Below, in pieces: positions 7,391 to 32,000 of a DNA stretch of 32,000 nt (within the stretch, counting starts at the first letter, position 1; every line of letters starts with the position of its first letter). The notes below the pieces were generated by a model that saw only the letters and a list, made by a program, of their open reading frames with translations, did not search any database and was not told where the DNA came from. Origin of the DNA: Candidatus Saccharimonadota bacterium (lineage in GTDB: Bacteria > Patescibacteriota > Gracilibacteria > UBA4473); assembly GCA_963677105.1 (NCBI GenBank), contig OY781871.1:480001-512000 (forward strand), in the 5' to 3' direction. The position numbers and the translations under genes are program-made.

Positions 7391-7409
7391 AATTTCGTAA
7401 AGAATTCTC

Positions 7410-7438
7410 TTGCCAATAATTCGCAATCTTGCTAACGT
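7410..7438 (+). promoter_or_regulatory. Sigma70-like promoter of the Fur-family gene, leaderless geometry
   Basis: TTGCCA (7410-7415), 17-nt spacer, TAACGT (7433-7438), then 8 nt to ATG 7447. Confidence 0.45.
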
Positions 7439-7446
7439 CGCGCTCG

Positions 7447-7875
7447 ATGAGTGATTTTCTATTATCAGTTCAAGCCATATTCGTTGCTCGTGGATGGCGC
7501 GTAACCGCAGGAGTACAAAATGTTGTTCGTATATTAGAACAGTCTCAAATCCCTATTTCTTCTGCAGAAATTTGTGCACAACTCGAAAAGGAAGGACGAC
7601 CAATTGATCTCACTACCGTGTATCGAATTCTGGATAGATTAATCTCTATTCACCTTTTGCATTCATTAAATGGAAAATTTATTCGTTGCTCTGATCCCGA
7701 AAATAAAAGTGACTCTCATCACTTTCTGATCTGCGATGATTGTGGAAAAGCTGAAGAGATTTTCCTTGATTATTTTAAGTCAATCGAACAACAGCTTCAA
7801 CGAGAAAAGAAGTTCCAATTGCGAGAAGTTGATATGAATTTTTTGGGACTTTGTTCTCATTGTCGGAAAAATTGA
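7447..7875 (+). CDS. Fur-family metalloregulator (Fur/Zur/PerR type)
   Basis: The TTG start in the ORF track (7429) is trimmed to ATG 7447. Winged-helix region SSAEICAQLEKEGRPIDLTTVYRILDRL, H-rich linker SDSHHFLICDDCGK, and C-terminal CSHC (two CxxC pairs). Confidence 0.8.
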   Translation: MSDFLLSVQAIFVARGWRVTAGVQNVVRILEQSQIPISSAEICAQLEKEGRPIDLTTVYRILDRLISIHLLHSLNGKFIRCSDPENKSDSHHFLICDDCGKAEEIFLDYFKSIEQQLQREKKFQLREVDMNFLGLCSHCRKN

Positions 7876-10545: not shown

Positions 10546-11823
10546 ATGAGCTCTCCACAACAAATACCTTTTATTGAAAAACAAGACGCAGAAATTGCAG
10601 CAGCAATTCGCGGTGAAGAAAAACGAGAAAGAGAAGGACTCGAACTTATTCCCTCAGAAAACTATGTATCAAAAGCTGTCCTCGAAGCAGACGGTTCTGT
10701 TTTCACAAATAAATATTCTGAAGGATATCCCGGACGTCGATATTACGGTGGACAAGAATACACAGACATCGTTGAGCGAATCGCAATAGAACGCGCTTGT
10801 AAGCTTTTTAACTGTAAATATGCAAACGTACAACCGCTCTCTGGAGCACCAGCAAACGTAGCGATGTATTTTGCTCTCTGTAAACCTGGCGATACAATTC
10901 TTGGAATGGATCTCGGGCACGGAGGACATTTGACTCACGGACATCCGGTAACACATTTAGCGAAAATTTTTAACTTCGTGCGATACGGGATGAAAGATCC
11001 TGAAACAGGGGAAATTGATTATGAAGCACTCAGAGAAACGGCTCTTCGGGAAAAACCAAAAATGATTCTCGCTGGATTTTCTGCTTACTCACGAGAACTT
11101 GAGTATGAAAAGTTTGTAGAAATTGCAAAAGAAGTTGGTGCGATTACTGTTGCTGACATGGCACATATTGCAGGACTTATAGCCGGGAAAGCGGTGAAGA
11201 ATCCATTTGATTATGGATTTGATGTTATCACGACCACAACTCATAAAACGCTTCGTGGACCACGTGGAGGAATGATTCTGACTCGGGAAAATGAAGATTA
11301 CGCAAAAGCAATTAATAAATCTGTCTTCCCTGGATTACAGGGGGGACCTCACATGCATTTAATTGCTGGAAAGGCTGTTGCATTTGGTGAAGCTTTAAAG
11401 CCAGAGTTTCAAGAATATGCACAACAGGTATTGAAAAACGCAAAAGCAATGGAAAAAGTATTCCTCGACGGAGGCGTACGACTTCTTGGAGGAGGAACCT
11501 CTAATCATCTACTCTTGGCTGATGTGTTTGGGTCTCTTGGTGTAACTGGAAAAGATGCACAAATGGCTCTTGATGAGGTTGGAATAACGCTCAATATGAA
11601 TTCCATTGCAGATGATCCACGAAAGCCGCTAGATCCTTCTGGAATTCGATTTGGAACACCAGCAGCAACTACACGAGGATTTAAGGAAGAAGACTGTGCT
11701 CAAGTAGCAGAACTTATGCTTGCTGTATTGAACAACATTGAAGACGAGAAAATAAAGAAAAATGTACGCGAAGAAATTAAAGAGCTCTGTGTTTCTCATC
11801 CAATTCCTGAAAGTTTCGTCTAG
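10546..11823 (+). CDS. glyA: Serine hydroxymethyltransferase
   Basis: 425 aa. LELIPSENY, YPGRRYYGG, SGAPANVA, and PLP-lysine motif TTTHKTLRGPRGG. Confidence 0.97.
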   Translation: MSSPQQIPFIEKQDAEIAAAIRGEEKREREGLELIPSENYVSKAVLEADGSVFTNKYSEGYPGRRYYGGQEYTDIVERIAIERACKLFNCKYANVQPLSGAPANVAMYFALCKPGDTILGMDLGHGGHLTHGHPVTHLAKIFNFVRYGMKDPETGEIDYEALRETALREKPKMILAGFSAYSRELEYEKFVEIAKEVGAITVADMAHIAGLIAGKAVKNPFDYGFDVITTTTHKTLRGPRGGMILTRENEDYAKAINKSVFPGLQGGPHMHLIAGKAVAFGEALKPEFQEYAQQVLKNAKAMEKVFLDGGVRLLGGGTSNHLLLADVFGSLGVTGKDAQMALDEVGITLNMNSIADDPRKPLDPSGIRFGTPAATTRGFKEEDCAQVAELMLAVLNNIEDEKIKKNVREEIKELCVSHPIPESFV

Positions 11824-11905: not shown

Positions 11906-14900
11906 TTAGTTACATAATGGTTGTGGCGTAAACATTCCACAAGTTCCGGCAGAAGGAGGCGTAAAGGATCCTGCTGGTAGATAGATTAAGTGTTTATCGG
12001 TCTGTAGGTTCTGCATTCCCGTGAGAGCATTGACTCCTTTCATTACATTCGCATTCCCGTCAACAATTGCAGAAACTTTGTTATTATCATTAATTGTACA
12101 TTCTTCAATTATTACTGGTTTTTCTGTTTCAGAACAATATTTATCAGCAACTATCCCTCCTAAACTACTTGAACAACTCACTTTGCGGGCCCTATATAAC
12201 ACTGGTGAAGCCAATGAAGCACTCGTCAAGGCTGTTTCAACTGTACTTAATTCAATTCCTGTCGAAGACATAAATCCTCCTCCCGATACTCCTACGTCTC
12301 GACTTGCAACGGAAGTGGCATGACTAATATCATCAATCAGTGCTACTGCTTCTATCGCAGCAATTTGCTCAAGTCTTTCGTCCACCGTCATTGGAGTTCC
12401 TTCTACTATATCTATCAATGAAGCCCTTGAAAGAGAACTCGATAATCCTGCTGCAGTTAAAACTTGTTCCTTTTTCTGTGTCAAATTTGTAACTGCTGCT
12501 GCTGCTGACTGTTGAACTGATTTCTCTGCTGCTATTACGTTCGCTACTCGTTGATTATTTCCACAATTTCCCCATTCTCCTACTTCCCAGTCATATGTAA
12601 CCTTTGTTAGTGTACAGTCTTCTACGCTCGCTGGACGAGCACTGACCGAACTACTAAGTTTGTCTGTACAGAATGAATCTTCTACCACTTTCCCTGTATT
12701 TATGTGTACACAGTCCACGTCTCGTGTTCGAATAGGGATTTTGTTTTTGGCTACTGAGGAATAGAGTGTTGCACCACTTCTTGCTGAAGAAGATGTCACT
12801 AGATACGCCTCCTTTATTTGTGCTGAAATCTCTTCTATATCTTCCTTCACTTTTAGTGCCGCTTTTTCTAATCCTGTTCTTCTCTTTGATAACACTGGAG
12901 TAGTTGTACTCACTGCTATATTATTTTTTGCTGTCTCAAGTTTCGTGTATTTTTTCTCGAGTTTTTGCTTCACTATTTCTATAGAAGAATCTGCATCAGG
13001 TCCACATGGACTCCATTTTCCCAATCTCCATTCATAGTCATCCTCAAGTTCACACTCCATCATAGACACTGGTCTTGATGAACTAAATGTTGTGAGCTCA
13101 TTACTGCTTTCACAGAAAGAATCTTCTACGATTTTTTTATCTGAACGCTGACAACTTACGTCTCTGTATTTATATGGCAATCCACCATCATTCACTTCTT
13201 GGTTCACTATTGATACAGCTTCACTAAAAGTAAGTGTAGATTTTGTTGCATCTGTTATCGTCGTCGTATCAGGACTTCCACTAATCGCTATTTTCTCATA
13301 TTTTCTCGCTTTTTTTGCATTAATTGCCTTTGTATATTTTCGAAATTTAGCATTTACTCGAGCTTGAACACGAGCTGTCTCATCGCTTGAAGCAGAAATC
13401 GAAATCACTGCATCTGACGGACTTGACCAAGATGGCAATGATGAAAAGTTCTCGTTTGCCTGTGCCACGAACTTCGCCCGTGCAGATTCTAATTTTGCAA
13501 TCTCTTCATCTGCTGTTTCTTTTTCTTTCTCTCTTCTTGAAACATATAATTTCACGCTTTCTGGTTTTCCTGCACAGTCGCTCCAATCACCAGTAATCCA
13601 TGAATATGTATATTTCACTTCATTGTCATACAATTTACATGTTTGACTCGATTTCGGTCGCTCTGTTCCCGCACAATACACCTCTGATTGAAGTGATCCA
13701 AATTCACTAAGACAAAGTACGCTTCTAAACTGAATTCCTACTGGAACTGAAACAGCTTCCTCCACTGAAATATCACTATCCACTAAAGCGTTTATTGCAA
13801 GCACCACATCTTCTTTCACTTTATTTTTCAATGACACTGCTTTCGTCAAGCTTTCACTGCTGCTAGACAACGTACTTCCAGCTCCTGAAGTATAATATGT
13901 CACCATTTGTTCTGCTGCACGTAACTCTTTTTCTAAGTCCTCTACTTTTTCATTAAGATCAACTTTTTCTGCTCCACACGGTCCCCATCGTCCTACGCTC
14001 CATGTTCCTGGGATGCTTACGAGTGGATCTTCTGCTCCGAAAATGTTTCCTGTTTTCATTGATTGCACTCCCGCTCCGAGCTCGTTCACAGCGTAAACAA
14101 AGATATCATATTTCTTTCCCGCTTCTGGCTTTGGCGTACCTGTTACGTCCCATGTATATGCTCCTTCTCCTTCTGCTACGTCAAAACATGTTGTCCCCAA
14201 AGATTCTCCTTGCACACACACTTTGTAGGTACTAATTGTACCGTATCCTTTTTGAGCTTCTGTACTCAAGTCTGTCCAAGTAACTGTAAATCCATTTGCT
14301 TGAGACTCAATCGCTAAATCTGCTGGTGCCAATGGAATAGTCACAAAATTCAAGTTCAAAAGATTTCCTTCTTTATACAAATCTCCTGTGAAGTTAATAT
14401 TTCCTCTTATGTCCAATGCTTCTGTTGGAACGGTTGTCGGAAGAAGGTTTATTCCTACCTTTGATGTTCCCGCTAATGAGTCAGCTAGCCGAACTGTCGG
14501 CGCTGTAACCGAAATTTTTGTGTTCGCCCCTGGTAGCCCTGCCAATGTTGCAATATTAATATCTCCCGTTGAATCATTCTGAATTAATATATCTTTATCT
14601 AGTCCTCCAGCAATTTTCATGCTTAAGTCTTCGCTTAATGAAGAAATGTCTAACTGCTCACTCTGAGAACTCAATATTATCTTTCCTGAATTCCTGCTTA
14701 ACACCTCTGCTCCATCATCTCCCATTCGAATTGTATTGTTCCCAACATGAAGATCCTCTACCCAAAGATTTCCAAACCATTTATCTGCGGCCCCAATATT
14801 TCGAGTAGAAATAACTCCCGTCGCTCCTGTCATATTTGGCAATATGTCTGAAGTAACATCTGTAAGATCTGCTCCACTTCCACCTGATATATCCGTTCCA

Positions 14901-15268
14901 CAGGTAAATACTCCCGAAGCATCAACTGCCTGAAGTTGTTCTCCTGATGCACATGTCAGAGCCGTAACCCCTGAACCACCTGCCGGCCAAGCTGTTATAC
15001 AGTCTGTATTTATACAAAATTCTGGCGCAGTTAATTTTGTAACAGATGTATCATTTAAATCTAATCCTGTAATTTTCCCGCTTCCATCAATATCTACTCC
15101 TGTAAATACTTCTGTTACCTCGTTTATCGCAGACGTTATATCGTTAAACTCGTACGCAGAAACGGGGTCACTTGCTGATTTTTCTGGAAAATTGAGGGAA
15201 CTAATCTGAGCACTCGCGTTGCTCATTATAAGTACCCCGACGAGGCCGAGAAGAAGCGTTTTTTTCAT
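11906..15268 (-). CDS. Giant secreted surface protein: tail-fibre-like N-terminal region, FN3-like domain, four split TSP1-like Trp/Cys modules
   Basis: The ORF track starts at TTG 15295. ATG 15268 gives the signal peptide MKKTLLLGLVGVLIMSNASAQ. The N-terminal region carries tail-fibre/beta-helix-like motifs (FCINTDCITAWP, IGAADKWFGNLWVEDLHVGNNTI, ALDIRGNINFTGDLY). An FN3-like domain lies at about aa 320-415 (ORF-track numbering). Four repeated W..G.W..CG ... R.V.C modules span about aa 431-1067. Confidence 0.85.
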   Translation of the reverse strand: MKKTLLLGLVGVLIMSNASAQISSLNFPEKSASDPVSAYEFNDITSAINEVTEVFTGVDIDGSGKITGLDLNDTSVTKLTAPEFCINTDCITAWPAGGSGVTALTCASGEQLQAVDASGVFTCGTDISGGSGADLTDVTSDILPNMTGATGVISTRNIGAADKWFGNLWVEDLHVGNNTIRMGDDGAEVLSRNSGKIILSSQSEQLDISSLSEDLSMKIAGGLDKDILIQNDSTGDINIATLAGLPGANTKISVTAPTVRLADSLAGTSKVGINLLPTTVPTEALDIRGNINFTGDLYKEGNLLNLNFVTIPLAPADLAIESQANGFTVTWTDLSTEAQKGYGTISTYKVCVQGESLGTTCFDVAEGEGAYTWDVTGTPKPEAGKKYDIFVYAVNELGAGVQSMKTGNIFGAEDPLVSIPGTWSVGRWGPCGAEKVDLNEKVEDLEKELRAAEQMVTYYTSGAGSTLSSSSESLTKAVSLKNKVKEDVVLAINALVDSDISVEEAVSVPVGIQFRSVLCLSEFGSLQSEVYCAGTERPKSSQTCKLYDNEVKYTYSWITGDWSDCAGKPESVKLYVSRREKEKETADEEIAKLESARAKFVAQANENFSSLPSWSSPSDAVISISASSDETARVQARVNAKFRKYTKAINAKKARKYEKIAISGSPDTTTITDATKSTLTFSEAVSIVNQEVNDGGLPYKYRDVSCQRSDKKIVEDSFCESSNELTTFSSSRPVSMMECELEDDYEWRLGKWSPCGPDADSSIEIVKQKLEKKYTKLETAKNNIAVSTTTPVLSKRRTGLEKAALKVKEDIEEISAQIKEAYLVTSSSARSGATLYSSVAKNKIPIRTRDVDCVHINTGKVVEDSFCTDKLSSSVSARPASVEDCTLTKVTYDWEVGEWGNCGNNQRVANVIAAEKSVQQSAAAAVTNLTQKKEQVLTAAGLSSSLSRASLIDIVEGTPMTVDERLEQIAAIEAVALIDDISHATSVASRDVGVSGGGFMSSTGIELSTVETALTSASLASPVLYRARKVSCSSSLGGIVADKYCSETEKPVIIEECTINDNNKVSAIVDGNANVMKGVNALTGMQNLQTDKHLIYLPAGSFTPPSAGTCGMFTPQPLCN
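12095..14005 (-). repeat. Four divergent protein-level repeats (split thrombospondin-type-1-like modules) inside the giant gene
   Basis: The module boundaries, in nt, are approximately 13631-14005, 13046-13609, 12608-13036 and 12095-12598. See the finding for the aligned motifs. Confidence 0.6.
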
Positions 15269-15550
15269 GTGTGTTTGTGTGAAAAATTGTATCAATATCT
15301 ATTTTTTCACGCATTGAGAAAAAAGCCAAACTTTTTTTGGACGTAAAATTTTCTCTCTCCCCATCAAAATGGGAACTCAGTCCTATTTATATTTGACTTT
15401 TTTGTGCTTTTAGTCTATTCTACAAGTGTTCCTTGGCTACTTTTACAAAAGATCGTCAAGGATGATCTTTGATATATCAGAATTTAGAAAAAATAAGCTT
15501 TTATCTTTGGTGGCTATAAGCCACTTTTCACACCATTATATCGCTGTTTT

Positions 15551-15760: not shown

Positions 15761-18700
15761 ATGTTTTCTACAAAAAAAGGGATTGTGGTCATCCTTATAA
15801 TGACCATCGCTGTTTTGGCTTTCGGCCAGAACATGGAATACGAAAATCATGGAACAATGACTGTTGGCGGAGGATCATATCTTCGTCATAATTGGGTACA
15901 ATTACCCAATGGTGACAACTACGTTCGCTGCACAACCAATGGCGTGTCAACAAATGTTGAGTTATATGCCGGATGGACATTAACGTTTAATGGCGTTACA
16001 AATCCATGTATGGCGGAAGACGATGGCACAATTTATTGCGCTGTTAGTCAATATGACGCAACCACAATTGGCGGAGTCACATATCCTGATCCTCCAAACA
16101 ATGAATCACGAGTTATTCTCGTGAAAATTAGTTCAAGCGGATCTGTCTTAGATTCATGGATCACTTCTGACCATGGATTTGAGCTGAAGAATATCGCAAC
16201 GAATGGCTCCGAGATAGCACTTGTTGGACACGCTGACCCATCATTAGAACACCTCTCCTCCCCAATCGGCGGAGGCGTTGTTCTCATCCATGATGGAAAC
16301 AACTGGGATCCCACGAAGGGTTTCTATATTGAAACCCCTGCTAATGGATTTCGTCCGGTTGTCACCGATGTTCAATTTCTCTCAAATGGAAATTTGGCCT
16401 TAAGTGGGGAATGGACAGGCGGAACACTGTCTTTCGGCGGACTTTCTCGTTCTCCTATCGGAGGAGAGGATATGTTTCGTGGAGAAATTAGCACCGCTGG
16501 TGTTGGTATTTCCGTTGTTAACTCTGGTGGTCTTAGTGGTGATTTCGATAATATCTCTATCACCAATGCAAATGGTGATTATATGATCACTGGGCTGTAT
16601 TGTAGCTCTACATCACTAACTACGTTCTATAACGCAGACGAATCGGTTGGAGGAACTATTGATGTTCATCCTGTTGGCAACTCACATGATCAAATGTATT
16701 TTGCATTCTATGACGCTTCTGGCGTATTGCAGAATGTAGAGTATGTATACAACTCCAACGAAGATCTACGTAATGTAGACGTCGCTTGTAGCGACGGATA
16801 CTTTTACGCCATGATTAGCAATGAAAATGGGGGAACTGTAGTAACTCCAACGGAAAGTCACTCTCAGCTAGCTCCTATAATGCTTAAGTTTGATTCTGTG
16901 GGAACTCCCATATGGTCAAAGCAGTATGAGGGAACCTCTGCTCAATACGGAGAAGAAATTCTCGTGAGCGGAGATATCGTGACCATTTGTGGTCTTGAGT
17001 ACGGAACATCCGATCTCGATTTCGATGTCAACAACGTAGTCAATGTGTCCAATACTAGCTATTGGGCTCGTTACTTCGACGGCGTCGTAGTTGGACCAAC
17101 CGCAGATTTCGTTGGAACTCCAACCACAATCGTGGAAGGAGAAAGTGTTTCCTTTACGGATTTATCCGGAACTGGAACAAATCCAATCACTTCTCGCTAC
17201 TGGACATTTGGAGACGATGGAACTTCTAGTTCTACTAATCCAACCAATACTTATGATGATCCCGGAATATACACAGTTTCTTTAACTGTTTCCGACGGCG
17301 ACCTATCAGACACTGAAACGAAAACTGCGTATATCACTGTGATTGCGCAAACTTTGTCATTAACTCCAACATCAGAAGATGTTACTGCTGCGGCTGGTTC
17401 TACCAGCTTTACAGTTTCATCCAACGGTGGATGGAACGCAGAGGAAGCCTGTGGCTGGGCTACAATCGCCCCCGCCTCCGGAAACGGAAATGGAAGCATT
17501 GCGGTCAACTATCAGGAAAATACAACAACGGTTAGCCGAAGTTGTGTTGTAACTGTAACAGCTGACAACGGTCTTGAGGAAGTGTTTACACTGACTCAAG
17601 CTGGAGCAACTCCTGTGTTGGTTTTTGATCCTACAACAACGAATGTTTCAACTGTTGCTGGGAACGCTGTTTCTGTCTTGAGTACTAACGAGGCTTCTGC
17701 TTCATTAGTTATCTCAGGATCAGGTGCTGCTGTAAATCCAACAACCGTTGTAACTGGTGACACAAATGTAACGGTTTCATATCCAGCGAATCTGGACATG
17801 GCAACTCGATCGTTTGTTGTAACCGCCACATCAAGTCCTCACGGACTTGTTGAAACGTTTACCGTTGATCAAACTGGTGTTGATGCGTTTATCGTATTGA
17901 CCCCAGATAACGCGAACGTTCCAGCTTCTGCTGGTTCTGTAAACGTTACGATTGATTGCCCGGGCGACCTTGCTTGGACAATTGATGGATTGGCTGATTG
18001 GATAACCGTTGACGAGTTAACCGGAACAGGACCTCAAGATATCTTGATTTCCTACGAAGAGAATGAAGAAGAAACTCCACGTTCAGACGACTTCACTGTC
18101 GCTGGATCCGGGGAAACTGCAATGTTTTCTCTGAGTCAAGTAGCAGCAAACGCTCCTTTGAGCGGAACTGCAACTGCGTCTCCAGATGAAATATCTGTTG
18201 GTGCGGAAATTCAGCTGTCAGCCCAGGGAACTGGCGGAACTGGGAATTATTCTTATTCCTGGACCTCTGTTCCTGTTGGTTTTACATCAACAGAACAGAG
18301 CCCGACAGCCACTCCTGTAATTCATACAACGTACTCTTGCGACATTTTTGATGGCGAAGATGCGTTTGTAGCAGAAGTTGACGTAATTGTTCATCCACTT
18401 CCTGTGGTTGATTTTTACGCCGACGACGTAACTCCAACTGTTGGTCAGGTAGTGCAGTTCACTGCTGACATTACTTTCCCTTCTGGAGCACTTGGTGTTT
18501 CCACTTACGAATGGGACTTCGATGATCCCACAGGTGAAAATGGCGGATTCTCCAATGAGGAAAATCCAGGCTACGCATTTGCCGAAGATGGGAGCCACGA
18601 CGTGAAGTTGACCATCTGGTTAACGGACGGGACAGTTACTTGGGAACAGAAGATTGATTACATCACTATCACCGTTGGTGTTGATGATGAACATGTGACT

Positions 18701-18967
18701 CCGGTCACAACTTCACTCTCGAACTATCCCAATCCGTTCAACCCAACTACTACAATTCGTCTTCAGGCGAATGCAAACGTGGAATGGAAATCCCTTGGCG
18801 TTTATAACATCAAGGGACAGTTGGTTAAATCTATAGATGTGGACCGTTTACGCGGAACACAAAACATAGAGATAAAAATGGACGAGAATGCTTCTGGGGT
18901 ATATTTCATGCGTGCTACTACGTATGATGGAAAGAATATGCTTCACAAAATTTCTCTTTTGAAATGA
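15761..18967 (+). CDS. Secreted multidomain protein: beta-propeller-like N-terminal region, PKD domains, Ig/BACON-like repeats, T9SS type-A C-terminal sorting domain
   Basis: 1068 aa. Signal peptide MFSTKKGIVVILIMTIAVLAFGQN. Two PKD-like domains (VSFTDLSGTGTNPITSRYWTFGDDGTSSSTNPTNTYDDPGIYTVSLTVSD and VQFTADI...YEWDFDDP...GSHDVKLTIW). Three repeats of about 90 aa ending in ..FTLTQAG, ..FTVDQTG and ..FSLSQVA. C-terminal NYPNPFNPTTTIRL...SGVYFMRATTYDGKNMLHKISLLK. Strong SD AAAGGAGGG 5 nt before the ATG. Confidence 0.9.
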   Translation: MFSTKKGIVVILIMTIAVLAFGQNMEYENHGTMTVGGGSYLRHNWVQLPNGDNYVRCTTNGVSTNVELYAGWTLTFNGVTNPCMAEDDGTIYCAVSQYDATTIGGVTYPDPPNNESRVILVKISSSGSVLDSWITSDHGFELKNIATNGSEIALVGHADPSLEHLSSPIGGGVVLIHDGNNWDPTKGFYIETPANGFRPVVTDVQFLSNGNLALSGEWTGGTLSFGGLSRSPIGGEDMFRGEISTAGVGISVVNSGGLSGDFDNISITNANGDYMITGLYCSSTSLTTFYNADESVGGTIDVHPVGNSHDQMYFAFYDASGVLQNVEYVYNSNEDLRNVDVACSDGYFYAMISNENGGTVVTPTESHSQLAPIMLKFDSVGTPIWSKQYEGTSAQYGEEILVSGDIVTICGLEYGTSDLDFDVNNVVNVSNTSYWARYFDGVVVGPTADFVGTPTTIVEGESVSFTDLSGTGTNPITSRYWTFGDDGTSSSTNPTNTYDDPGIYTVSLTVSDGDLSDTETKTAYITVIAQTLSLTPTSEDVTAAAGSTSFTVSSNGGWNAEEACGWATIAPASGNGNGSIAVNYQENTTTVSRSCVVTVTADNGLEEVFTLTQAGATPVLVFDPTTTNVSTVAGNAVSVLSTNEASASLVISGSGAAVNPTTVVTGDTNVTVSYPANLDMATRSFVVTATSSPHGLVETFTVDQTGVDAFIVLTPDNANVPASAGSVNVTIDCPGDLAWTIDGLADWITVDELTGTGPQDILISYEENEEETPRSDDFTVAGSGETAMFSLSQVAANAPLSGTATASPDEISVGAEIQLSAQGTGGTGNYSYSWTSVPVGFTSTEQSPTATPVIHTTYSCDIFDGEDAFVAEVDVIVHPLPVVDFYADDVTPTVGQVVQFTADITFPSGALGVSTYEWDFDDPTGENGGFSNEENPGYAFAEDGSHDVKLTIWLTDGTVTWEQKIDYITITVGVDDEHVTPVTTSLSNYPNPFNPTTTIRLQANANVEWKSLGVYNIKGQLVKSIDVDRLRGTQNIEIKMDENASGVYFMRATTYDGKNMLHKISLLK

Positions 18968-28827: not shown

Positions 28828-28844
28828 AGCTAAATATTCTAAAG

Positions 28845-28872
28845 AATCCCTCGTTTTACCGAGGGATTTTTT
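28845..28872. terminator. Rho-independent terminator between convergent recA and the dCMP-deaminase-like gene
   Basis: AATCCCTCG (28845-28853), loop TTTTAC, CGAGGGATT (28860-28868), then a T-run. It is better oriented for recA. Confidence 0.8.
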
Positions 28873-29341
28873 ATTTACTTTTCCCAAACAATACGTCCGC
28901 CCCTTCTACAAGAAAAACTTTCTCTATTCCTGCGTCAATCATTTTCTCCCAACAGCTTTCACAACACCACCAGTGTCCCCATAAATACAATTCTGCTCCT
29001 TTGGGATTAGCGCCTCTTCTAAGAACATCTCGAAGGGCCGTTTGTTCCGCATGAAATTTTGGAGAACATCCTGGACAAGACCAATACATTTTCCCGGATG
29101 GGACTAGGAAAAGGTTGCGTAATCCTTTTCTTACACACCCTAAATGTTTATGAAACCATGAAACATTCGCGCCCTTCCCTATTATTTTCCCTTCTTTTAC
29201 CACAACGGCACCGGTCGAATGTTTTACGTCTGTCGAATATTTCTTCGCAACTTCCTCGGCAAGACGCATGAATTCGTTTTCTCTGGGAACATAAAAAACT
29301 TCCCATCCGATAGGAATATATGGCAGTGTTTCCTTTTTCAT
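28871..29341 (-). CDS. Cytidine/deoxycytidylate deaminase family protein (dCMP-deaminase-like)
   Basis: 156 aa. Zinc motifs FHAEQTAL (HAE) and WWCCESC (the CxxC equivalent of PCxxC), plus an extra CPGC in an insert before HAE, as in ComEB/T4-type dCMP deaminases. TAATG overlap with the upstream Dcd-like gene. Confidence 0.75.
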   Translation of the reverse strand: MKKETLPYIPIGWEVFYVPRENEFMRLAEEVAKKYSTDVKHSTGAVVVKEGKIIGKGANVSWFHKHLGCVRKGLRNLFLVPSGKMYWSCPGCSPKFHAEQTALRDVLRRGANPKGAELYLWGHWWCCESCWEKMIDAGIEKVFLVEGADVLFGKSK

Positions 29342-29988
29342 TATTTCAGCTTTTTTAATACATCAAGATTTCCGGTACGTATTAATTCTAATTCTTCTTC
29401 CGCATCACACTTACTTGTAAGTTCTGCTGAGGTCGCTCCCTCATACTTTGCAGCTTGCGCTCCATGACGCTGTGCTTCATCTTTTTGCACATCACTTGCA
29501 AGTCGCTGAAAAACAATTTGACAAACTCTTTCTCCCGGGTAAATACGGATGATTTGCGACGTTGTTTTATTCAAAATTGGAATCATCAAATGTCCTGAAT
29601 AATGGACGTCTACAATCCCCGTTAAATCGACTGAAAGCCCTCGACGATTTACTGAACTTCGTGGATACAAAACTCCCATAATGTCATCTGCCCGGAGAGA
29701 AACTTTTTCAAGCGTACTTGCTATAACCGATTCACCTGGAGCTAGCTCAAAGAATTGCCCTGACTCTAAATCTATTTTCTCATAATTATCTGCCGTACAA
29801 TGAGTAACGTCCACTGTTAAAACTTCTCTCCCTCTATCTGAAATTTTCCATATTTTTGGCAAATAGAATGTCGTCCCAAGTCGCAAATCAACCGCGTGTG
29901 GTTGATCTTGGTATTTATCAAGTGCTGGTTCAAAAATTAATTTTTCCTCAGCTATCAATGTTCCGATTTCGTGTCGCGTAAGAATCAT
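29341..29988 (-). CDS. dCTP deaminase / dUTPase superfamily protein (Dcd-like, non-canonical active site)
   Basis: 215 aa. Collinear with E. coli Dcd (AVDLRLG, PGESVIASTLEKVSL, PRSSVNRRGL, C-terminal AAKYEG). The catalytic-Glu segment reads VDVHYSGHLMIPILN. ATGA overlap with the upstream DHFR-like gene. Confidence 0.8.
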   Translation of the reverse strand: MILTRHEIGTLIAEEKLIFEPALDKYQDQPHAVDLRLGTTFYLPKIWKISDRGREVLTVDVTHCTADNYEKIDLESGQFFELAPGESVIASTLEKVSLRADDIMGVLYPRSSVNRRGLSVDLTGIVDVHYSGHLMIPILNKTTSQIIRIYPGERVCQIVFQRLASDVQKDEAQRHGAQAAKYEGATSAELTSKCDAEEELELIRTGNLDVLKKLK

Positions 29989-30491
29989 TTTAAAACCTTA
30001 TACCAAAGTGCCAGCGTATTTTCCCCAATTTTTTCAAATTTATCAAGCTCCAGTTCCAATTCTGTGTCATCGCTGAAAACGCCCATTCCCGAGCCAAAAA
30101 CAATCGGCGAAACTGTAACGATAACTTCGTCTATTAATTTTTCTTTTGCAAACAACGTATTAATTGTTGTTCCTCCAGCAACAATCGGATTCTCAAATCC
30201 GAGAGAATTCAGTTTGTCCAAAATTTCTGTTGGAGACAAAGAAGTGAAAATTAAATTTTCTTCTCGTTGCTCCCATTCTCCGGCACTTCGTGATAGAACA
30301 ACTGAAAGCCTTCCTGGCAAAACTCCTGGTAATGTATCAAATGTTGTTCTTCCAAAAATCATAACACCTGACTCTTTTGTTCGACTGCAAAAGAATTTTT
30401 TATCAGCGCTTTCGGTCCAATTGGGAAAATGATTCGCGTCTTTTGCGATTCTCCCATCCAGTGTTTGAGCCATTAATAAAGAAACTTTCAT
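29985..30491 (-). CDS. Dihydrofolate reductase superfamily protein (RibD C-terminal-domain type)
   Basis: The ORF-track start 30539 is trimmed to ATG 30491 (MKVSLLMAQTLDGRIA...), which has a leaderless promoter. Motifs SLDG-like TLDGRI, MIFGRTTFDTLPGVLPGRLSVVLS, IVAGGTTI and VSPIVFGSGMGVF. Confidence 0.7.
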   Translation of the reverse strand: MKVSLLMAQTLDGRIAKDANHFPNWTESADKKFFCSRTKESGVMIFGRTTFDTLPGVLPGRLSVVLSRSAGEWEQREENLIFTSLSPTEILDKLNSLGFENPIVAGGTTINTLFAKEKLIDEVIVTVSPIVFGSGMGVFSDDTELELELDKFEKIGENTLALWYKVLK

Positions 30492-30498
30492 TAGCTGC

Positions 30499-30527
30499 AG
30501 AGTAGCAGAAAATTTGATTTTCTTCAA
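30499..30527 (-). promoter_or_regulatory. Sigma70-like promoter, leaderless geometry, for the DHFR-like/Dcd-like/deaminase operon
   Basis: On the minus strand: TTGAAG (30527-30522), 17-nt spacer, TACTCT (30504-30499), then 7 nt to ATG 30491. Confidence 0.5.
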
Positions 30528-30549
30528 AAATTTTGGCACGGTATCTCTA

Positions 30550-31425
30550 ATGAAAAATGTCTCTCCGGAATTGCGGTCAAAATTATTGCACTTTCAGCAA
30601 AGTGAACGGACAGAGGCTATTGTTTATAGGAGCTTGGCAAAGCAATGTAAGAATGAAAAAAATTGTAGAATTCTCAATCAAATTGCTGATGATGAATTAC
30701 GACATGCTGAATTTTGGAGAGCGGTGACAGACGGAGAACGCATAAAAGGAAATGTCTTTCGTGCTCGCTGGTGGAGCTTTGTTGCTCGCATTTTGGGAAT
30801 CACATTCGGATTACGATTGATGGAACGAGGCGAGGGGAATGCACAAAAAGTCTATGCGAGAGTCGAAAAATATGTTCCAAATGTCAATACTGTTATTGCC
30901 GATGAAGAAGCTCATGAACAGAAACTTATTGATGTTCTCGATGAAAAAAAATTAGAGTATGTGGGTTCTATTGTTCTTGGTTTAAACGATGCTCTCGTTG
31001 AATTGACAGGAGCTCTCGCTGGATTTTCTTTCGCGATTCAAAACACAAAAACCATTGCTCTTTTGGGGGTTATTACTGGAATTGCCGCAACCCTCTCCAT
31101 GGCTGCAAGTGAATATTTATCCAATCGAGCCGACGACAGTGGAAACGCACTAACTGCTTCTCTTTATACTGGAATCGCCTATTTGATAACGGTTATTCTT
31201 TTAGTAGTTCCGTATTTTATTTTCAACAACTATCTTCACGCTCTTGGAACAATGCTCGGAATAGTTGTGTTTGTAATTGCAGCATTTACTTTCTATCTTT
31301 CGGTGGCGAAAAATGAAAAATTCTGGCACCGTTTTGGTGAGATGACTTTAATTAGTGTTGGTGTTGCCGCATTGTCTTTTGGAATTGGTGTGGCTGCACG
31401 ATTGGGATTAGGGTTGGATATTTAA
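30550..31425 (+). CDS. VIT1/CCC1-family iron/manganese transporter with N-terminal ferritin-like domain
   Basis: The ORF-track start 30514 is trimmed to ATG 30550 (MKNVSPEL...). The ferritin-like domain has two E..H motifs (DELRHAEFW, DEEAHEQKL), followed by the VIT1 membrane domain (GLNDALVELTGALAG...SMAASEYLS...). Confidence 0.85.
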   Translation: MKNVSPELRSKLLHFQQSERTEAIVYRSLAKQCKNEKNCRILNQIADDELRHAEFWRAVTDGERIKGNVFRARWWSFVARILGITFGLRLMERGEGNAQKVYARVEKYVPNVNTVIADEEAHEQKLIDVLDEKKLEYVGSIVLGLNDALVELTGALAGFSFAIQNTKTIALLGVITGIAATLSMAASEYLSNRADDSGNALTASLYTGIAYLITVILLVVPYFIFNNYLHALGTMLGIVVFVIAAFTFYLSVAKNEKFWHRFGEMTLISVGVAALSFGIGVAARLGLGLDI

Positions 31426-31658
31426 AAAATCATTCCTACAAGCGAAACCAACGCAATGATTCCCCAAACAATCTGAAGTGCTGAGGCGGCCCACGCTTTT
31501 TTCTTTACAACAGATATTCCAAGAAATAAAGCCCCAAAAAGATTAATAACTGGATATACGATTCCCTCTACTGAAATAAACCCAAATACATTTAAAAAAT
31601 ATCCCAACACGACGAGTGTTGTTCCAACCCAACCGATGATTTCGGAAATTTTATTCAT
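31422..31658 (-). CDS. Small 3-TM membrane protein, co-transcribed downstream of the ThyA-like gene
   Basis: 78 aa with three hydrophobic helices. Its start is 10 nt after the ThyA-like stop. Its stop overlaps the VIT1 stop (shared TTAA). Confidence 0.55.
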   Translation of the reverse strand: MNKISEIIGWVGTTLVVLGYFLNVFGFISVEGIVYPVINLFGALFLGISVVKKKAWAASALQIVWGIIALVSLVGMIF

Positions 31659-31668
31659 TTTTATTTAT

Positions 31669-32000
31669 TTATAAAACAATAGACATTCTTCCGAGCGACT
31701 CCTGTGGTTCGTATTTTGATTTCAGCTGCTCAAAACATTCTTGGACCAGGTCCTCTGAATCGCCGTCGCCAACCTCCGCCCGATCAAATGCGTTTTTTGG
31801 ACAATTAAATTGAATTGGCTCCGCTAAACATTTTCGGGCAATTATCTCTCGTGCCTGATCAAAATGGATGTCATAAATATGTGCATTCGAAATTGAGATT
31901 GTTAAAAATCCAACTCCCACACCTACCTTTTCCGCCAGAAAATGAGCTAATAATGCGAATCCCGCTGTGTCATGCGGATTCCCAAGCATCATGTCATTCG
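31669..32000 (-). CDS. Thymidylate synthase (ThyA) family protein, C-terminal about 110 aa only; Asp variant at the pyrimidine-selecting position
   Basis: The frame is open to the window edge (..NDMMLGNPHDTAGFALLAHFLAEK...SNAHIYDIHFDQAREII...YEPQESLGRMSIVL). It aligns without gaps to ThyA [22 protein letters not shown] / GDTHLYSNHMDQ. Confidence 0.85.
   Translation of the reverse strand, partial: NDMMLGNPHDTAGFALLAHFLAEKVGVGVGFLTISISNAHIYDIHFDQAREIIARKCLAEPIQFNCPKNAFDRAEVGDGDSEDLVQECFEQLKSKYEPQESLGRMSIVL

What the first reader, a model, noticed from the sequence alone, without database searches (positions are those of the whole stretch)
28871..32000. Pyrimidine deoxynucleotide gene cluster whose parts fit a cytosine-C5 pathway better than canonical dTMP synthesis
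These genes lie within 3.1 kb. The ThyA-like gene (31669 to beyond 32000, minus) is followed after 10 nt by a 78-aa 3-TM protein. After an oppositely oriented VIT1 gene comes a translationally coupled minus-strand operon with its own leaderless-type promoter: RibD_C/DHFR-like (29985..30491), then Dcd-like (29341..29988, ATGA overlap), then dCMP-deaminase-like (28871..29341, TAATG overlap). Carrying both a dCTP-deaminase-family and a dCMP-deaminase-family gene is redundant for ordinary dUMP supply. The Asp-variant ThyA and the apparently Glu-less Dcd suggest an alternative reading. In it, dCTP is converted to dCMP by the Dcd-like protein acting as something other than a deaminase. The ThyA-like enzyme then makes 5-methyl- or 5-hydroxymethyl-dCMP; a DHFR partner is needed only if DHF is produced, which points to methylation. 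Finally the deaminase yields dTMP or 5-hm-dUMP, since T4- and animal-type dCMP deaminases are known to accept 5-substituted dCMP. The outcome would be either a route to thymidylate that bypasses dUMP or a DNA-cytosine hypermodification pathway in a cellular genome. All of this is inference from gene content and motif changes.
Basis: inference. Interest (0 to 1): 0.68.

Follow-up and report, generated by a model that had tools for sequence, protein, structure and literature searches.

The report
Cytosine-first thymidylate operon in CPR bacteria
This tiny-genome (CPR/Patescibacteria) bacterium, like hundreds of its relatives, carries a conserved gene set that looks like ordinary thymidylate synthesis but has the active-site signatures of the phage Xp12 system, which methylates dCMP first and deaminates afterwards, so a whole bacterial superphylum may make the DNA base T by a route so far known only from viruses.

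Summary
The genes, the ATGA and TAATG overlaps, Asp in place of ThyA Asn177, and loss of the Dcd catalytic Glu (to Pro) are all confirmed.

The cluster is not a local oddity. At least 473 species-level Patescibacteria genomes carry this ThyA variant. In 80 loci examined, Asp177 is invariant, with Pro147, Asn143 and Phe83. This is the signature of the phage Xp12/PaMx74 dCMP methyltransferases, with which the clade groups in a tree.

The usual neighbours are a DHFR, a discrete Dcd subfamily with Glu138 replaced by Pro, and a divergent dCMP-deaminase-family protein. The 5mC phages have the parallel module: pyrophosphohydrolase, TS homolog, deaminase, DHFR.

Best reading, by inference only:
- Dcd* converts dCTP to dCMP.
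- ThyA* converts dCMP to 5-methyl-dCMP, and DHFR recycles the DHF produced.
- The deaminase converts 5-methyl-dCMP to dTMP.

No enzyme was assayed. Absence of thyX or a canonical thyA could not be checked genome-wide. Canonical dUTPases sit near some of these operons. I found no paper describing this in cells. Databases name these proteins "thymidylate synthase" and "dCTP deaminase".

The parts
31669..32000 (-). ThyA* gene, 3' part only. This is an Xp12-type thymidylate-synthase homolog with Asp at the Asn177 position. It holds the C-terminal ~110 codons, and the gene runs ~510 nt beyond the window end.
   Evidence: Pfam PF00303. The motif 'NDMMLGNPHD' is read directly in the window. It is 88-91% identical to the full-length genes in L009 and L010, which carry KNVPCP (Cys146, Pro147, Asn143).
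31422..31658 (-). 78-aa membrane protein of the CBU_0592 family, 10 nt downstream of ThyA*. It is probably co-transcribed, but it is not a conserved partner.
   Evidence: NCBIfam NF047864, 49.8 bits against a cutoff of 25. phmmer found no homolog in the 80 related loci.
30514..31425 (+). Rubrerythrin-like plus VIT1 protein (MbfA-like iron exporter), oppositely oriented. It is inserted between thyA* and folA, nearly always in the closest (Peribacteria-like) lineage, and is not part of the pathway.
   Evidence: Pfam and NCBIfam. phmmer finds it in 10 of the 80 related loci: between thyA* and folA in L008, L009, L010, L013, L017, L018, L021 and L026, and elsewhere in L003 and L075. In the other loci with folA, folA directly follows thyA*.
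29985..30491 (-). Dihydrofolate reductase of the Thermotoga type, the first gene of the three-gene operon. Its predicted role is to recycle the DHF made by ThyA*.
   Evidence: Pfam DHFR_1 43.6 bits and RibD_C 61.9 bits. PDB 1CZ3, E 2e-23 over the full length. The start at ATG 30491 matches homolog N-termini. CPR folA genes complement E. coli delta-folA (PMC11974145).
29341..29988 (-). Dcd*, a dCTP-deaminase-fold protein with the catalytic Glu138 replaced by Pro. It is predicted to be a non-deaminating dCTP (or dUTP) pyrophosphatase. Its start overlaps the DHFR stop as ATGA.
   Evidence: Pfam DCD, and TIGR02274 98.9 bits. Alignments to Mtb and E. coli Dcd. Pro is conserved in 51 of 54 linked homologs, and in every sequence covering that position (with one exception) among the ~23 best cluster representatives.
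28871..29341 (-). Divergent deaminase of the dCMP-deaminase (CDA) family, the last gene of the operon, with a TAATG overlap. It is predicted to convert 5-methyl-dCMP to dTMP.
   Evidence: Pfam PF00383, 55 bits. The HAE and CxxC motifs are read directly. It is only remotely similar to solved dCMP deaminases (E ~1e-4) and far below the ComEB equivalog cutoff. It is linked to ThyA* in 44 of 80 loci within 4 kb.
28840..28873 (.). Hairpin plus T-run between the convergent recA and deaminase genes, a probable bidirectional terminator that ends the operon.
   Evidence: Terminator scan: 14-bp stem, 5 GC pairs.
10546..11823 (+). Serine hydroxymethyltransferase (GlyA). It is unlinked but lies in the same window, and it supplies the 5,10-methylene-THF needed by ThyA*.
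   Evidence: Pfam SHMT, E 8e-152.

Best explanation
The cluster is a cellular, housekeeping version of the thymidylate route known from 5-methylcytosine phages such as Xp12.

Proposed steps:
1. Dcd*, which has the Dcd fold but no deaminating Glu, hydrolyses dCTP to dCMP plus PPi. It may be dTTP-regulated like other Dcd enzymes.
2. ThyA* (Asp177, Pro147, Asn143) reductively methylates dCMP with 5,10-methylene-THF, giving 5-methyl-dCMP and DHF.
3. The co-transcribed DHFR regenerates THF, and SHMT reloads it.
4. The CDA-family deaminase converts 5-methyl-dCMP to dTMP. It might instead act after phosphorylation, converting 5mdCTP to dTTP.
5. Tmk and related kinases carry the product on.

dUMP is not an intermediate.

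Shown here: gene content, residue signatures, the grouping with Xp12-type enzymes, and conserved linkage. Inferred: every substrate and the order of steps.
For: 1. ThyA* signature. In 80 of 80 Patescibacteria loci position 177 is Asp. Position 147 is Pro in 79 of 80, position 143 is Asn in 80 of 80, and position 83 is Phe in 80 of 80. Cys146, Glu58, Tyr94, Arg166, Asp169, His207 and Tyr209 are kept. Positions 177 and 147 are the two top discriminators of cytosine-modifying TS homologs (PMC8670742). N177D converts TS to a dCMP methylase (literature cited).
2. Xp12, PaMx74-type (PA_LZ02), Mallos and RcRudolph enzymes share the same Asn143, Pro147, Phe83 and Asp177, plus the 'KNVPCP' and 'AYGYRW' motifs. 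T4 gp42 has Asp143/Thr147, and canonical TS has Leu143/His147/Asn177.
3. In a neighbour-joining tree, the split (CPR + Xp12-type | canonical + gp42) appeared in 100 of 100 bootstraps. The best phage tblastn hits of ThyA* are these 5mC-phage enzymes.
4. The Xp12 TS homolog, and 5 of 7 deaminase-linked Asp177 homologs tested, make 5mdCMP. Their neighbouring deaminases yield thymidine nucleotides, 'bypassing the need for another TS' (bioRxiv 10.1101/2024.12.05.627091).
5. The phage module is [pyrophosphohydrolase]-[TS*]-[deaminase]-[DHFR]. This matches the four CPR functions.
6. Linkage. In 42 distant Patescibacteria loci, within 4 kb, DHFR is present in 40, Dcd* in 35 and the deaminase in 32, with all three in 27. 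The typical order is ThyA*-DHFR-Dcd*-deaminase with gaps of 0-20 nt. The same holds when anchoring on Dcd* (L102).
7. Dcd* is a discrete subfamily with Glu138->Pro that keeps the hydrolysis Asp128. In L001 a MazG-like pyrophosphatase takes its place.
8. Canonical dUTPases co-occur next to the operon in 11 loci, so Dcd* is not simply the cell's dUTPase.
9. A DHFR directly after ThyA* argues for a DHF-producing reaction, that is methylation and not hydroxymethylation.
10. A deaminase-kinase fusion (L080) and adjacent Tmk genes fit a deaminase product of dTMP.
Against: No biochemical data exist for any CPR member.

Arg127 is His in the CPR clade (79 of 80), unlike both Xp12-type and canonical TS. 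The effect of this is unknown.

The CPR deaminase is not orthologous to the Xp12-type deaminase (blastp E 6e-5 over 60 aa), so its 5mC preference is inferred from context only.

Canonical Dut genes near the operon also fit a dUMP-fed pathway. A Dcd*-deaminase fusion (L104) fits the order dCTP->dCMP->dUMP at least as well.

In some lineages the deaminase slot holds a Cys-less TS-like protein or an amidohydrolase fusion. This is unexplained.

About half of the closest relatives show no linkage within the sequence held.

I could not test whether thyX or an Asn177 thyA exists elsewhere in these genomes. None lies in the ~1.2 Mb of flanks held.
Confidence: 0.55

Rival explanations
1. Ordinary dUMP-based thymidylate synthesis with unusual residues. 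Dcd* supplies dCMP or dUMP, acting as a dCTPase or a Dcd-like dUTPase. The deaminase makes dUMP from dCMP. ThyA* still methylates dUMP despite Asp177, and DHFR recycles folate.
For: - All four proteins score as members of the canonical families. ThyA* exceeds the TIGR03284 cutoff (139 against 108) and Dcd* exceeds the TIGR02274 cutoff.
- The best PDB matches of ThyA* are canonical TS enzymes, E 1e-40.
- Canonical dUTPase and Tmk genes lie beside the operon in several lineages.
- The Dcd*-deaminase fusion in L104 fits consecutive dCTP->dCMP->dUMP steps.
- Dcd-fold enzymes that are only dUTPases exist in archaea (my own knowledge of M. jannaschii MJ1102 and P. furiosus dUTPase).
Against: - Asp177, Pro147 and Asn143 are invariant and match the dCMP methyltransferases, not any dUMP-using TS in the comparison.
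- The N177D switch of specificity is established.
- The clade groups with Xp12-type enzymes.
- Dcd* scores only 40 bits against the archaeal dUTPase equivalog, whose cutoff is 130.
- This model gives no reason for the coordinated loss of the Dcd Glu.
Confidence: 0.25
2. The operon serves to replace or enrich cytosine by 5-methylcytosine in the cell's own DNA, as in Xp12. Dcd* acts as the dCTP-excluding dCTPase, and the deaminase only diverts part of the 5mC pool to T.
For: - The functional set is the same as in 5mC phages, including a pyrophosphatase.
- A DNMK-like P-loop kinase sits in many operons (33 bits for PF21448 in L076) and could phosphorylate 5mdCMP.
- The characterised phage deaminase mSCD-B5 acts on 5mdCTP, not on the monophosphate.
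- CPR-type ThyA* with the deaminase and a short Dcd* also occurs on phage-like IMG/VR contigs.
Against: - I found no report of globally 5mC-substituted DNA in any Patescibacteria.
- Tmk, not a dedicated 5mdCMP kinase, is the recurrent neighbour.
- The cells need a thymidylate source in any case, which the operon already explains.
- The kinase match covers only the P-loop region.
Confidence: 0.07
3. ThyA* is a hydroxymethylase of the T4 gp42 or MilA kind. It makes 5-hm-dCMP, which the deaminase converts to 5-hm-dUMP for a modified base or a small-molecule product.
For: Asp177 is shared with gp42. Nuc_deoxyrib_tr/DNPH1-like domains are fused to the deaminase in many lineages. This recalls the MilA/MilB logic and DNPH1's hmdUMP hydrolase activity (my own knowledge; PMC5175136 for MilA).
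Against: - ThyA* is only 20% identical to gp42, and gp42 has a different signature (Asp143, Thr147, Val83).
- The tightly coupled DHFR is pointless for a hydroxymethylase, which releases THF.
- His207 and Tyr209, the deoxyribose contacts, are kept, so CMP is an unlikely substrate.
- The clade groups with the methylating Xp12-type enzymes.
Confidence: 0.05

Closest known systems
Phage Xp12 / PaMx74-type (Bradleyvirinae, Pamexvirus) 5-methylcytosine module: pyrophosphohydrolase, dCMP methyltransferase (TS homolog, EC 2.1.1.54), dCMP-deaminase-family 5mC deaminase, DHFR
   Same: The TS homolog carries the same active-site signature (Asn143, Cys146, Pro147, Phe83, Asp177) and groups with ThyA* in the tree. 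The same four functions are encoded side by side. The same logic applies: methylate cytosine nucleotide first, then obtain T by deamination.
   Different: - Here the module sits on a cellular chromosome next to recA/lexA, ribosomal and other housekeeping genes, and is spread across a whole superphylum.
- The pyrophosphatase is a Glu-less Dcd-fold protein, not MazG/PRA-PH/HAD.
- The deaminase belongs to a different CDA lineage.
- The TS homologs are only ~34% identical, and Arg127 is His.
- There is no evidence that the cell's DNA is 5mC-substituted.
Canonical bacterial dTMP pathway: Dcd (or Dcd-Dut) / Dut / ThyA / FolA, or ComEB-type dCMP deaminase / ThyA
   Same: The protein folds, the folate cycle (SHMT, TS-type enzyme, DHFR) and the overall flux from dCTP to dTMP are the same. 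thyA-folA adjacency is a classic arrangement.
   Different: The substrate-determining residues of ThyA (Asn177, His147) and the catalytic Glu of Dcd are replaced throughout the clade. The predicted order of methylation and deamination is reversed, and dUMP is bypassed.
Phage T4 dNTP module: gp56 dCTPase/dUTPase, gp42 dCMP hydroxymethylase, Cd dCMP deaminase, Frd DHFR, Td
   Same: Both combine a dCTP pyrophosphatase that feeds a cytosine-specific TS homolog (Asp179 in gp42) with a dCMP deaminase and a DHFR.
   Different: - gp42 hydroxymethylates and has a different signature. It is 20% identical to ThyA*.
- T4 also keeps a separate dUMP-using Td.
- gp56 is not a Dcd-fold protein (my own knowledge).
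Archaeal Dcd-like monofunctional dUTPases (M. jannaschii MJ1102 type; NCBIfam PRK02253)
   Same: Both have the Dcd/dUTPase fold without dCTP deaminase chemistry. This is a precedent for a purely hydrolytic Dcd homolog.
   Different: Dcd* scores 40 bits against a cutoff of 130 for that equivalog, and is closer to true Dcd (98.9 bits). It co-occurs with canonical Dut in several genomes. Its base specificity is unknown.

Membership tests
Thymidylate synthase ThyA (EC 2.1.1.45) | TS fold / Pfam PF00303, catalytic Cys146, phosphate-binding Arg166 and Ser167, Tyr94, Glu58 | tested here: met
   The window fragment matches PF00303. Full-length relatives keep Cys146, Glu58, Tyr94, Arg166, Ser167, Asp169, His207 and Tyr209 in 80 of 80 loci. 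TIGR03284 scores 139 bits against a cutoff of 108.
Thymidylate synthase ThyA (EC 2.1.1.45) | Asn177 (with His147), which specifies uracil (dUMP) as substrate | tested here: not met
   Asp177 in 80 of 80 loci and in the window itself. Pro147 in 79 of 80.
Xp12-type dCMP methyltransferase (EC 2.1.1.54) | Asp at position 177 and a non-His residue at position 147. The shared derived motif is K-N-V-P-C-P. | tested here: met
   Asn143, Pro147, Phe83 and Asp177 are identical in Xp12, PA_LZ02, Mallos, RcRudolph and all CPR sequences compared.
Xp12-type dCMP methyltransferase (EC 2.1.1.54) | Phylogenetic grouping with the characterised phage enzymes and not with canonical TS | tested here: met
   Neighbour-joining tree on 274 columns. 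The split CPR + Xp12-type appeared in 100 of 100 bootstraps. Sampling of canonical TS was small (3 sequences), and identity to the Xp12-type enzymes is only ~34%.
Xp12-type dCMP methyltransferase (EC 2.1.1.54) | Product is 5-methyl-dCMP, with DHF released | not testable with these tools
   Supported only by context: a DHFR immediately downstream in 40 of 42 distant loci. An enzyme assay is needed.
T4 gp42-type dCMP hydroxymethylase | gp42-like sequence and signature, and no DHF production | tested here: not met
   20% identity. gp42 has Asp143, Thr147 and Val83. ThyA* is tightly linked to a DHFR.
dCTP deaminase Dcd (EC 3.5.4.13) / bifunctional Dcd-Dut | Dcd fold with Ser111, Arg115 and Asp128 | tested here: met
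   Pfam DCD 96.8 bits, and TIGR02274 98.9 bits against a cutoff of 92.8. The residues are kept.
dCTP deaminase Dcd (EC 3.5.4.13) / bifunctional Dcd-Dut | Catalytic Glu138, which activates the deaminating water | tested here: not met
   Pro in the window and in 51 of 54 linked homologs. Pro in every sequence covering that position (with one exception) among the ~23 best cluster representatives, while Glu returns in lower-scoring canonical Dcd.
Trimeric dUTPase Dut (EC 3.6.1.23) | Five Dut motifs, including the C-terminal motif 5 (RGxxGFGSTG), and membership of the Dut equivalog models | tested here: not met
   Dut models score 38-40 bits against cutoffs of 102-130. The C-terminus is Dcd-like ('AAKYEGAT'). 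True Dut genes with all five motifs are found separately near the operon in 11 loci.
dCMP deaminase (CDA superfamily, ComEB/DCTD type, EC 3.5.4.12) | Zinc motifs H-A-E and C-x-x-C, and Pfam PF00383 | tested here: met
   PF00383 scores 55.3 bits against a cutoff of 25. 'FHAEQ' and 'CCESC' were read in the translation.
dCMP deaminase (CDA superfamily, ComEB/DCTD type, EC 3.5.4.12) | Equivalog-level similarity to characterised dCMP deaminases | tested here: not met
   TIGR02571 ComEB scores 32.7 bits against a cutoff of 219. The best PDB dCMP deaminase match has E 1.6e-4. In L001 a canonical ComEB-like deaminase coexists with the CPR-type one.
Dihydrofolate reductase (EC 1.5.1.3) | DHFR fold with full-length similarity to a characterised DHFR | tested here: met
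   DHFR_1 scores 43.6 bits against a cutoff of 25. T. maritima DHFR 1CZ3 matches residues 2-166 with E 2.4e-23.

The most novel reading that the evidence does not exclude
Across the Patescibacteria (CPR) superphylum, thymidylate is made without dUMP. A Glu-less Dcd hydrolyses dCTP to dCMP, an Xp12-type enzyme methylates dCMP to 5-methyl-dCMP, and a dedicated deaminase turns this into dTMP. The genes now annotated 'thymidylate synthase' and 'dCTP deaminase' in hundreds to thousands of genomes would then be misnamed. The cells would handle a 5-methyl-dC nucleotide pool that could also enter their DNA.
Probability: 0.5. Interest if true: 0.85.

Novelty: new variant of a known kind. Interest (0 to 1): 0.74.

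Why it matters
dUMP methylation by ThyA or ThyX is treated as the universal cellular route to thymidylate. A methylate-then-deaminate route is documented only for phages with 5mC DNA.

If the CPR operon works as its residues and neighbours indicate, several things follow:
- A large branch of bacteria uses a third way to make T.
- Automated annotation of two core enzymes is wrong for that branch.
- Metabolic reconstructions of CPR symbionts, including their folate and nucleotide dependence on hosts, need revision.
- The dUTP/uracil problem in these minimal cells looks different.
- An evolutionary bridge appears between CPR housekeeping genes and phage DNA-modification modules. CPR-type ThyA* also occurs on phage-like contigs.
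- CPR DNA may carry unusual amounts of 5mC. This is directly testable by LC-MS in cultured Saccharibacteria.

The hypothesis can be tested with four recombinant proteins.

Tried and rejected
1. Extending the window. An exact-protein look-up of the window's Dcd* found no accessible contig. The full-length ThyA* was therefore taken from relatives.
2. Split or intron-containing thyA. Many 103-104-aa database homologs suggested this. I rejected it: the contigs L001 and L002 show frameshifts at an A-run (AAGAAAAAAAAT) in noisy assemblies, other genes there are split too, and all 80 genome loci have an intact ~275-aa ORF.
3. Alternative genetic code (UGA as Gly). Rejected, because TGA ends the DHFR gene in the ATGA overlap and the ORFs are intact in code 11.
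4. Promoter. The consensus scan was not above chance.
5. gp42-type hydroxymethylase membership. Rejected.
6. Dcd* as the sole dUTPase. Weakened by separate canonical Dut genes.
7. Orthology of the CPR deaminase with Xp12-type deaminases. Rejected.
8. Close relatives of the window's deaminase on viral contigs. None were found with the single-protein scan. An alignment-based ThyA* scan did find 7 viral contigs.
9. Dcd*-anchored look-ups. Three landed on contigs too short to be informative (L099-L101).
10. Sequences of the tested 5mC-selective deaminases. No supplementary files are held.
11. Genome-wide absence of thyX, Asn177 thyA or dut. Locally, there is no second TS-family gene and no credible ThyX motif in the flanks held.
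12. Literature. Seven searches found no description of this clade in cells.

Full report
**What is in the window.**
- 28871-29341(-): a dCMP-deaminase-family gene.
- 29341-29988(-): a Dcd/dUTPase-fold gene.
- 29985-30491(-): a DHFR. The best solved relative is Thermotoga maritima DHFR, E 2e-23 over the full length.
- 30514-31425(+): an oppositely oriented rubrerythrin-VIT1 gene.
- 31422-31658(-): a 78-aa CBU_0592-family membrane protein.
- 31669-32000(-): the last ~110 codons of a ThyA homolog that runs off the window.

The ATGA and TAATG overlaps were read directly. The rest of the window is an ordinary cellular chromosome: T2SS ATPase, RNase Y, SHMT, PurL, MetRS, LexA and RecA. The closest genomes are Peribacteria/Gracilibacteria-labelled MAGs with the same gene order. 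RecA is 90% identical, ThyA 88-91% and Dcd 85-87%. The claimed 'leaderless-type promoter' could not be supported, because the promoter scan was at chance level.

**The two motif changes are real.** 'RSNDMMLGNPHD' aligns with E. coli '[12 protein letters not shown]', so Asn177 is Asp. My alignment reproduces the published T4 gp42 numbering, Cys148 and Asp179, which validates it. 'GHLMIPILN' aligns with 'GHITLELSN' of M. tuberculosis Dcd, so the catalytic Glu is Pro, while Ser111, Arg115 and Asp128 remain.

**A false lead.** Many database homologs of the ThyA fragment are 103-104 aa long. This suggested a split or intron-containing gene. The contigs behind them show frameshifts at an A-run, and other genes on them are split too. 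All 80 genome loci have an intact ~275-aa ORF. These short entries are assembly artefacts.

**The ThyA variant is a large, conserved clade.** A scan of one genome per species, using two clade-specific peptide patterns, found 473 confirmed loci. The best 80 are all Patescibacteria, and a few are probably mislabelled as Gammaproteobacteria.

In those 80 loci, using E. coli numbering:

| Position | Residue in CPR clade | Count |
|---|---|---|
| 177 | Asp | 80/80 |
| 147 | Pro | 79/80 |
| 143 | Asn | 80/80 |
| 83 | Phe | 80/80 |
| 127 | His | 79/80 |

The catalytic and deoxyribose-binding residues are kept: Cys146, Glu58, Tyr94, Arg166, Ser167, Asp169, His207 and Tyr209. Positions 177 and 147 are the two positions that best separate cytosine-modifying TS homologs from true TS in a metagenomic genotype-phenotype study. 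The N177D mutation is known to turn TS into a dCMP methylase (PMC8670742).

**Link to known dCMP methyltransferases.** The best phage relatives of the CPR protein are the TS homologs of Xanthomonas phage Mallos, the Pamexvirus PA_LZ02, RcRudolph and their relatives, a clade that contains Xp12 and PaMx74. These enzymes have the same Asn143, Pro147, Phe83 and Asp177, and share the motifs KNVPCP and AYGYRW. T4 gp42 has Asp143, Thr147 and Val83, and canonical TS has Leu143, His147 and Asn177. In a neighbour-joining tree on 274 columns, the CPR clade, the Xp12-type clade and the canonical clade were each monophyletic. The split (CPR + Xp12-type | canonical + gp42) was recovered in 100 of 100 bootstraps. 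The caveats are that only three canonical TS were included and that identity to the Xp12-type enzymes is ~34%.

A 2024 preprint reports that the Xp12 enzyme, and 5 of 7 deaminase-linked Asp177 homologs, make 5mdCMP in vivo. It also reports that the neighbouring dCMP-deaminase-family proteins are often 5mC-selective, that this trait is polyphyletic, and that the phages thereby obtain thymidine nucleotides without a second TS.

**Conserved linkage.** Using the window's proteins as phmmer queries on the ORFs of the 80 loci gave these counts within 4 kb of ThyA*:

| Group | Loci | DHFR | Dcd* | Deaminase | All three |
|---|---|---|---|---|---|
| Distant phyla (55-61% ThyA identity) | 42 | 40 | 35 | 32 | 27 |
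| Close relatives | 38 | 15 | 15 | 12 | 11 |

- In the distant phyla the usual order is ThyA*-DHFR-Dcd*-deaminase, on one strand, with gaps of 0-20 nt.
- Eight close relatives share the window's layout, with the VIT1 gene inserted.
- Anchoring on Dcd* gives the same picture. A 42%-identical Dcd* lies in ThyA*-DHFR-Dcd*-X-Tmk on a 316-kb contig.
- The 5mC phages encode [MazG/PRA-PH/HAD pyrophosphohydrolase]-[TS*]-[deaminase]-[DHFR]. These are the same four functions.

**Dcd* is a discrete subfamily.**
- In 51 of 54 linked homologs the Glu is Pro.
- In a search of 1.84 billion cluster representatives, every sequence covering that position (with one exception) among the ~23 best hits has Pro. Lower-scoring canonical Dcd proteins have Glu.
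- Dcd* keeps the hydrolytic Asp and a Dut-like 'D..Y.G.L.IP' motif.
- It scores above the NCBIfam dCTP-deaminase cutoff but far below the dUTPase equivalogs.
- Separate canonical dUTPases with all five motifs, or Tmk-Dut fusions, lie within 4 kb of ThyA* in 11 loci. Dcd* is therefore not just the cell's dUTPase.
- In L001 a MazG-like protein stands in for Dcd*, and a canonical ComEB-like deaminase coexists with the CPR-type deaminase.

**Most likely mechanism (inference).**
1. Dcd* hydrolyses dCTP to dCMP.
2. ThyA* methylates dCMP to 5-methyl-dCMP and releases DHF.
3. DHFR and SHMT close the folate cycle.
4. The deaminase gives dTMP, or acts at the triphosphate level as the phage enzyme mSCD-B5 does.
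5. Tmk or the P-loop kinase carries the product on.

This model explains why both motif changes are fixed together and why DHFR is translationally coupled. A deaminase-kinase fusion (L080) fits it. I give it 0.55.

**Rivals.** The main rival, at 0.25, keeps dUMP as the ThyA* substrate. It draws support from the neighbouring Dut genes and from a Dcd*-deaminase-NDT triple fusion (L104), which would suit the order dCTP->dCMP->dUMP. It has to ignore the residue signature. Global 5mC substitution of cellular DNA (0.07) and hydroxymethylation (0.05) are not excluded, but they have little specific support.

**Limits.**
- No activity was measured.
- The CPR deaminase is not an ortholog of the Xp12-type deaminase.
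- The effect of Arg127->His is unknown.
- About half of the close relatives show no linkage in the sequence held.
- Absence of thyX or canonical thyA could be checked only in the ~1.2 Mb of flanks held, where none was found.

**Novelty.** Seven literature searches found the phage pathway but no description of this clade or operon in cellular genomes. Papers on CPR treat thyA as ordinary, and databases name the proteins 'thymidylate synthase' and 'dCTP deaminase'. I therefore rate it a new (cellular, housekeeping, Dcd-fold-based) variant of a known phage system, and of high interest if confirmed.

Noticed in passing
L049:12027-12938, L054:2638-3612, L069:10389-11273, L070:11372-12286, L076:2828-3703; standalone L051:12280-12756: In many Patescibacteria the operon's deaminase is fused to a C-terminal domain like nucleoside 2-deoxyribosyltransferase or DNPH1, with the motif 'PSLGVG.ELE.A'. 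Pfam PF05014 scores 19-29 bits, near its cutoff. Its role is unknown. It could bind dNMP, or act as an N-hydrolase that sanitises dUMP or 5mdCMP.
   Followed up: partly
L063:11373-13118: An amidohydrolase-superfamily deaminase-type protein (Amidohydro_1, 152 bits) is fused to the same Nuc_deoxyrib_tr-like domain. It occupies the slot where other operons have the CDA-type deaminase, an apparent non-orthologous replacement.
   Followed up: partly
L102:6659-7696; L075:12002-13066; L065:11587-12630; L057:11587-12660; L073:11644-12061: A 345-354-aa, very divergent thymidylate-synthase-fold protein sits in the deaminase slot. It scores only 14-22 bits for PF00303 and has no PDB match by sequence. 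It lacks the catalytic Cys but keeps 'DPSSRRAI' and an Asp at the Asn177 position. Its function is unknown.
   Followed up: partly
L104:1-1416 (P0147), then 1423-1959 and 1956-2519: A triple fusion of Dcd* (Glu->Pro), the deaminase and a Nuc_deoxyrib_tr-like domain, followed by the P-loop kinase and Tmk. This is a Rosetta-stone link between Dcd* and the deaminase.
   Followed up: partly
L062:13650-14825, L076:4310-5512; short Dut genes in L044, L053, L059, L067, L070, L078, L079, L080, L082: Thymidylate kinase-dUTPase fusion proteins, and canonical 140-150-aa dUTPases, lie within 4 kb of the ThyA* operon in addition to Dcd*.
   Followed up: yes
L069:8344-8892, L076:3733-4278, L043:4861-5412, L062:13040-13594; fusion at L080:2552-3568: A conserved P-loop nucleotide kinase of ~180 aa is part of many operons (AAA_17/18, NF006226 82 bits, weak T4-gp1-like DNMK match). 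In L080 it is fused to the deaminase.
   Followed up: partly
L090-L096 (IMG/VR contigs); L095:5983-6822, 6819-7301, 8485-8964: Phage-like contigs carry CPR-type ThyA* (KNVPCP...RSNDM.LG.P.D) with a CPR-type deaminase and/or Dut. The phage character rests on primase/helicase, helicase, endolysin and ParB hits in PHROGs. L095 also has a short Dcd* with the same Glu->Pro change. The module is therefore shared between CPR cells and viruses.
   Followed up: partly
L001:5600-6484; L002:2334-3169: The 103-104-aa 'thymidylate synthase' entries in the protein collection are artefacts of frameshifts at an A-run (AAGAAAAAAAAT) in noisy assemblies. DHFR and an aminotransferase are split in the same contigs.
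   Followed up: yes
L001:5085-5606(-), 6976-7362(-), 7381-7677(-): One relative has ThyA* flanked by a CPR-type deaminase, a second canonical ComEB-like dCMP deaminase and a MazG-like pyrophosphatase, with no Dcd* in 16 kb. This suggests that the two deaminases differ in substrate and that MazG can replace Dcd*.
   Followed up: partly
window 30514-31425 (+) and 7429-7875 (+): A rubrerythrin-like plus VIT1 (MbfA-like iron exporter) gene is wedged between thyA* and folA. It recurs in 10 of the 80 related loci, nearly all from the closest lineage. A Fur-family regulator lies elsewhere in the window.
   Followed up: partly
window 15761-18967 (+) and 11906-15295 (-): Two very large predicted surface proteins. 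One has PKD and BACON domains plus a Por_Secre_tail (T9SS-type C-terminal sorting) domain, which is unexpected in a CPR bacterium. The other has a weak thrombospondin-type-1 match.
   Followed up: no
L046, L047 (OZ246400.1, 931-kb chromosome), L049, L050, L057, L060, L063, L065, L071, L073, L081: MAGs titled 'uncultured Gammaproteobacteria bacterium' carry the CPR-type operon, and one has a CPR-sized chromosome. The taxonomic labels are probably wrong.
   Followed up: no
PMC10733785 (Dictyostelium Dcd2): The eukaryotic and giant-virus Dcd2 clade is reported to nest inside mostly-CPR Dcd sequences, and it rescues an E. coli dcd mutant. I did not check whether it belongs to the Glu->Pro subfamily. 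That would bear on the activity of Dcd*.
   Followed up: no
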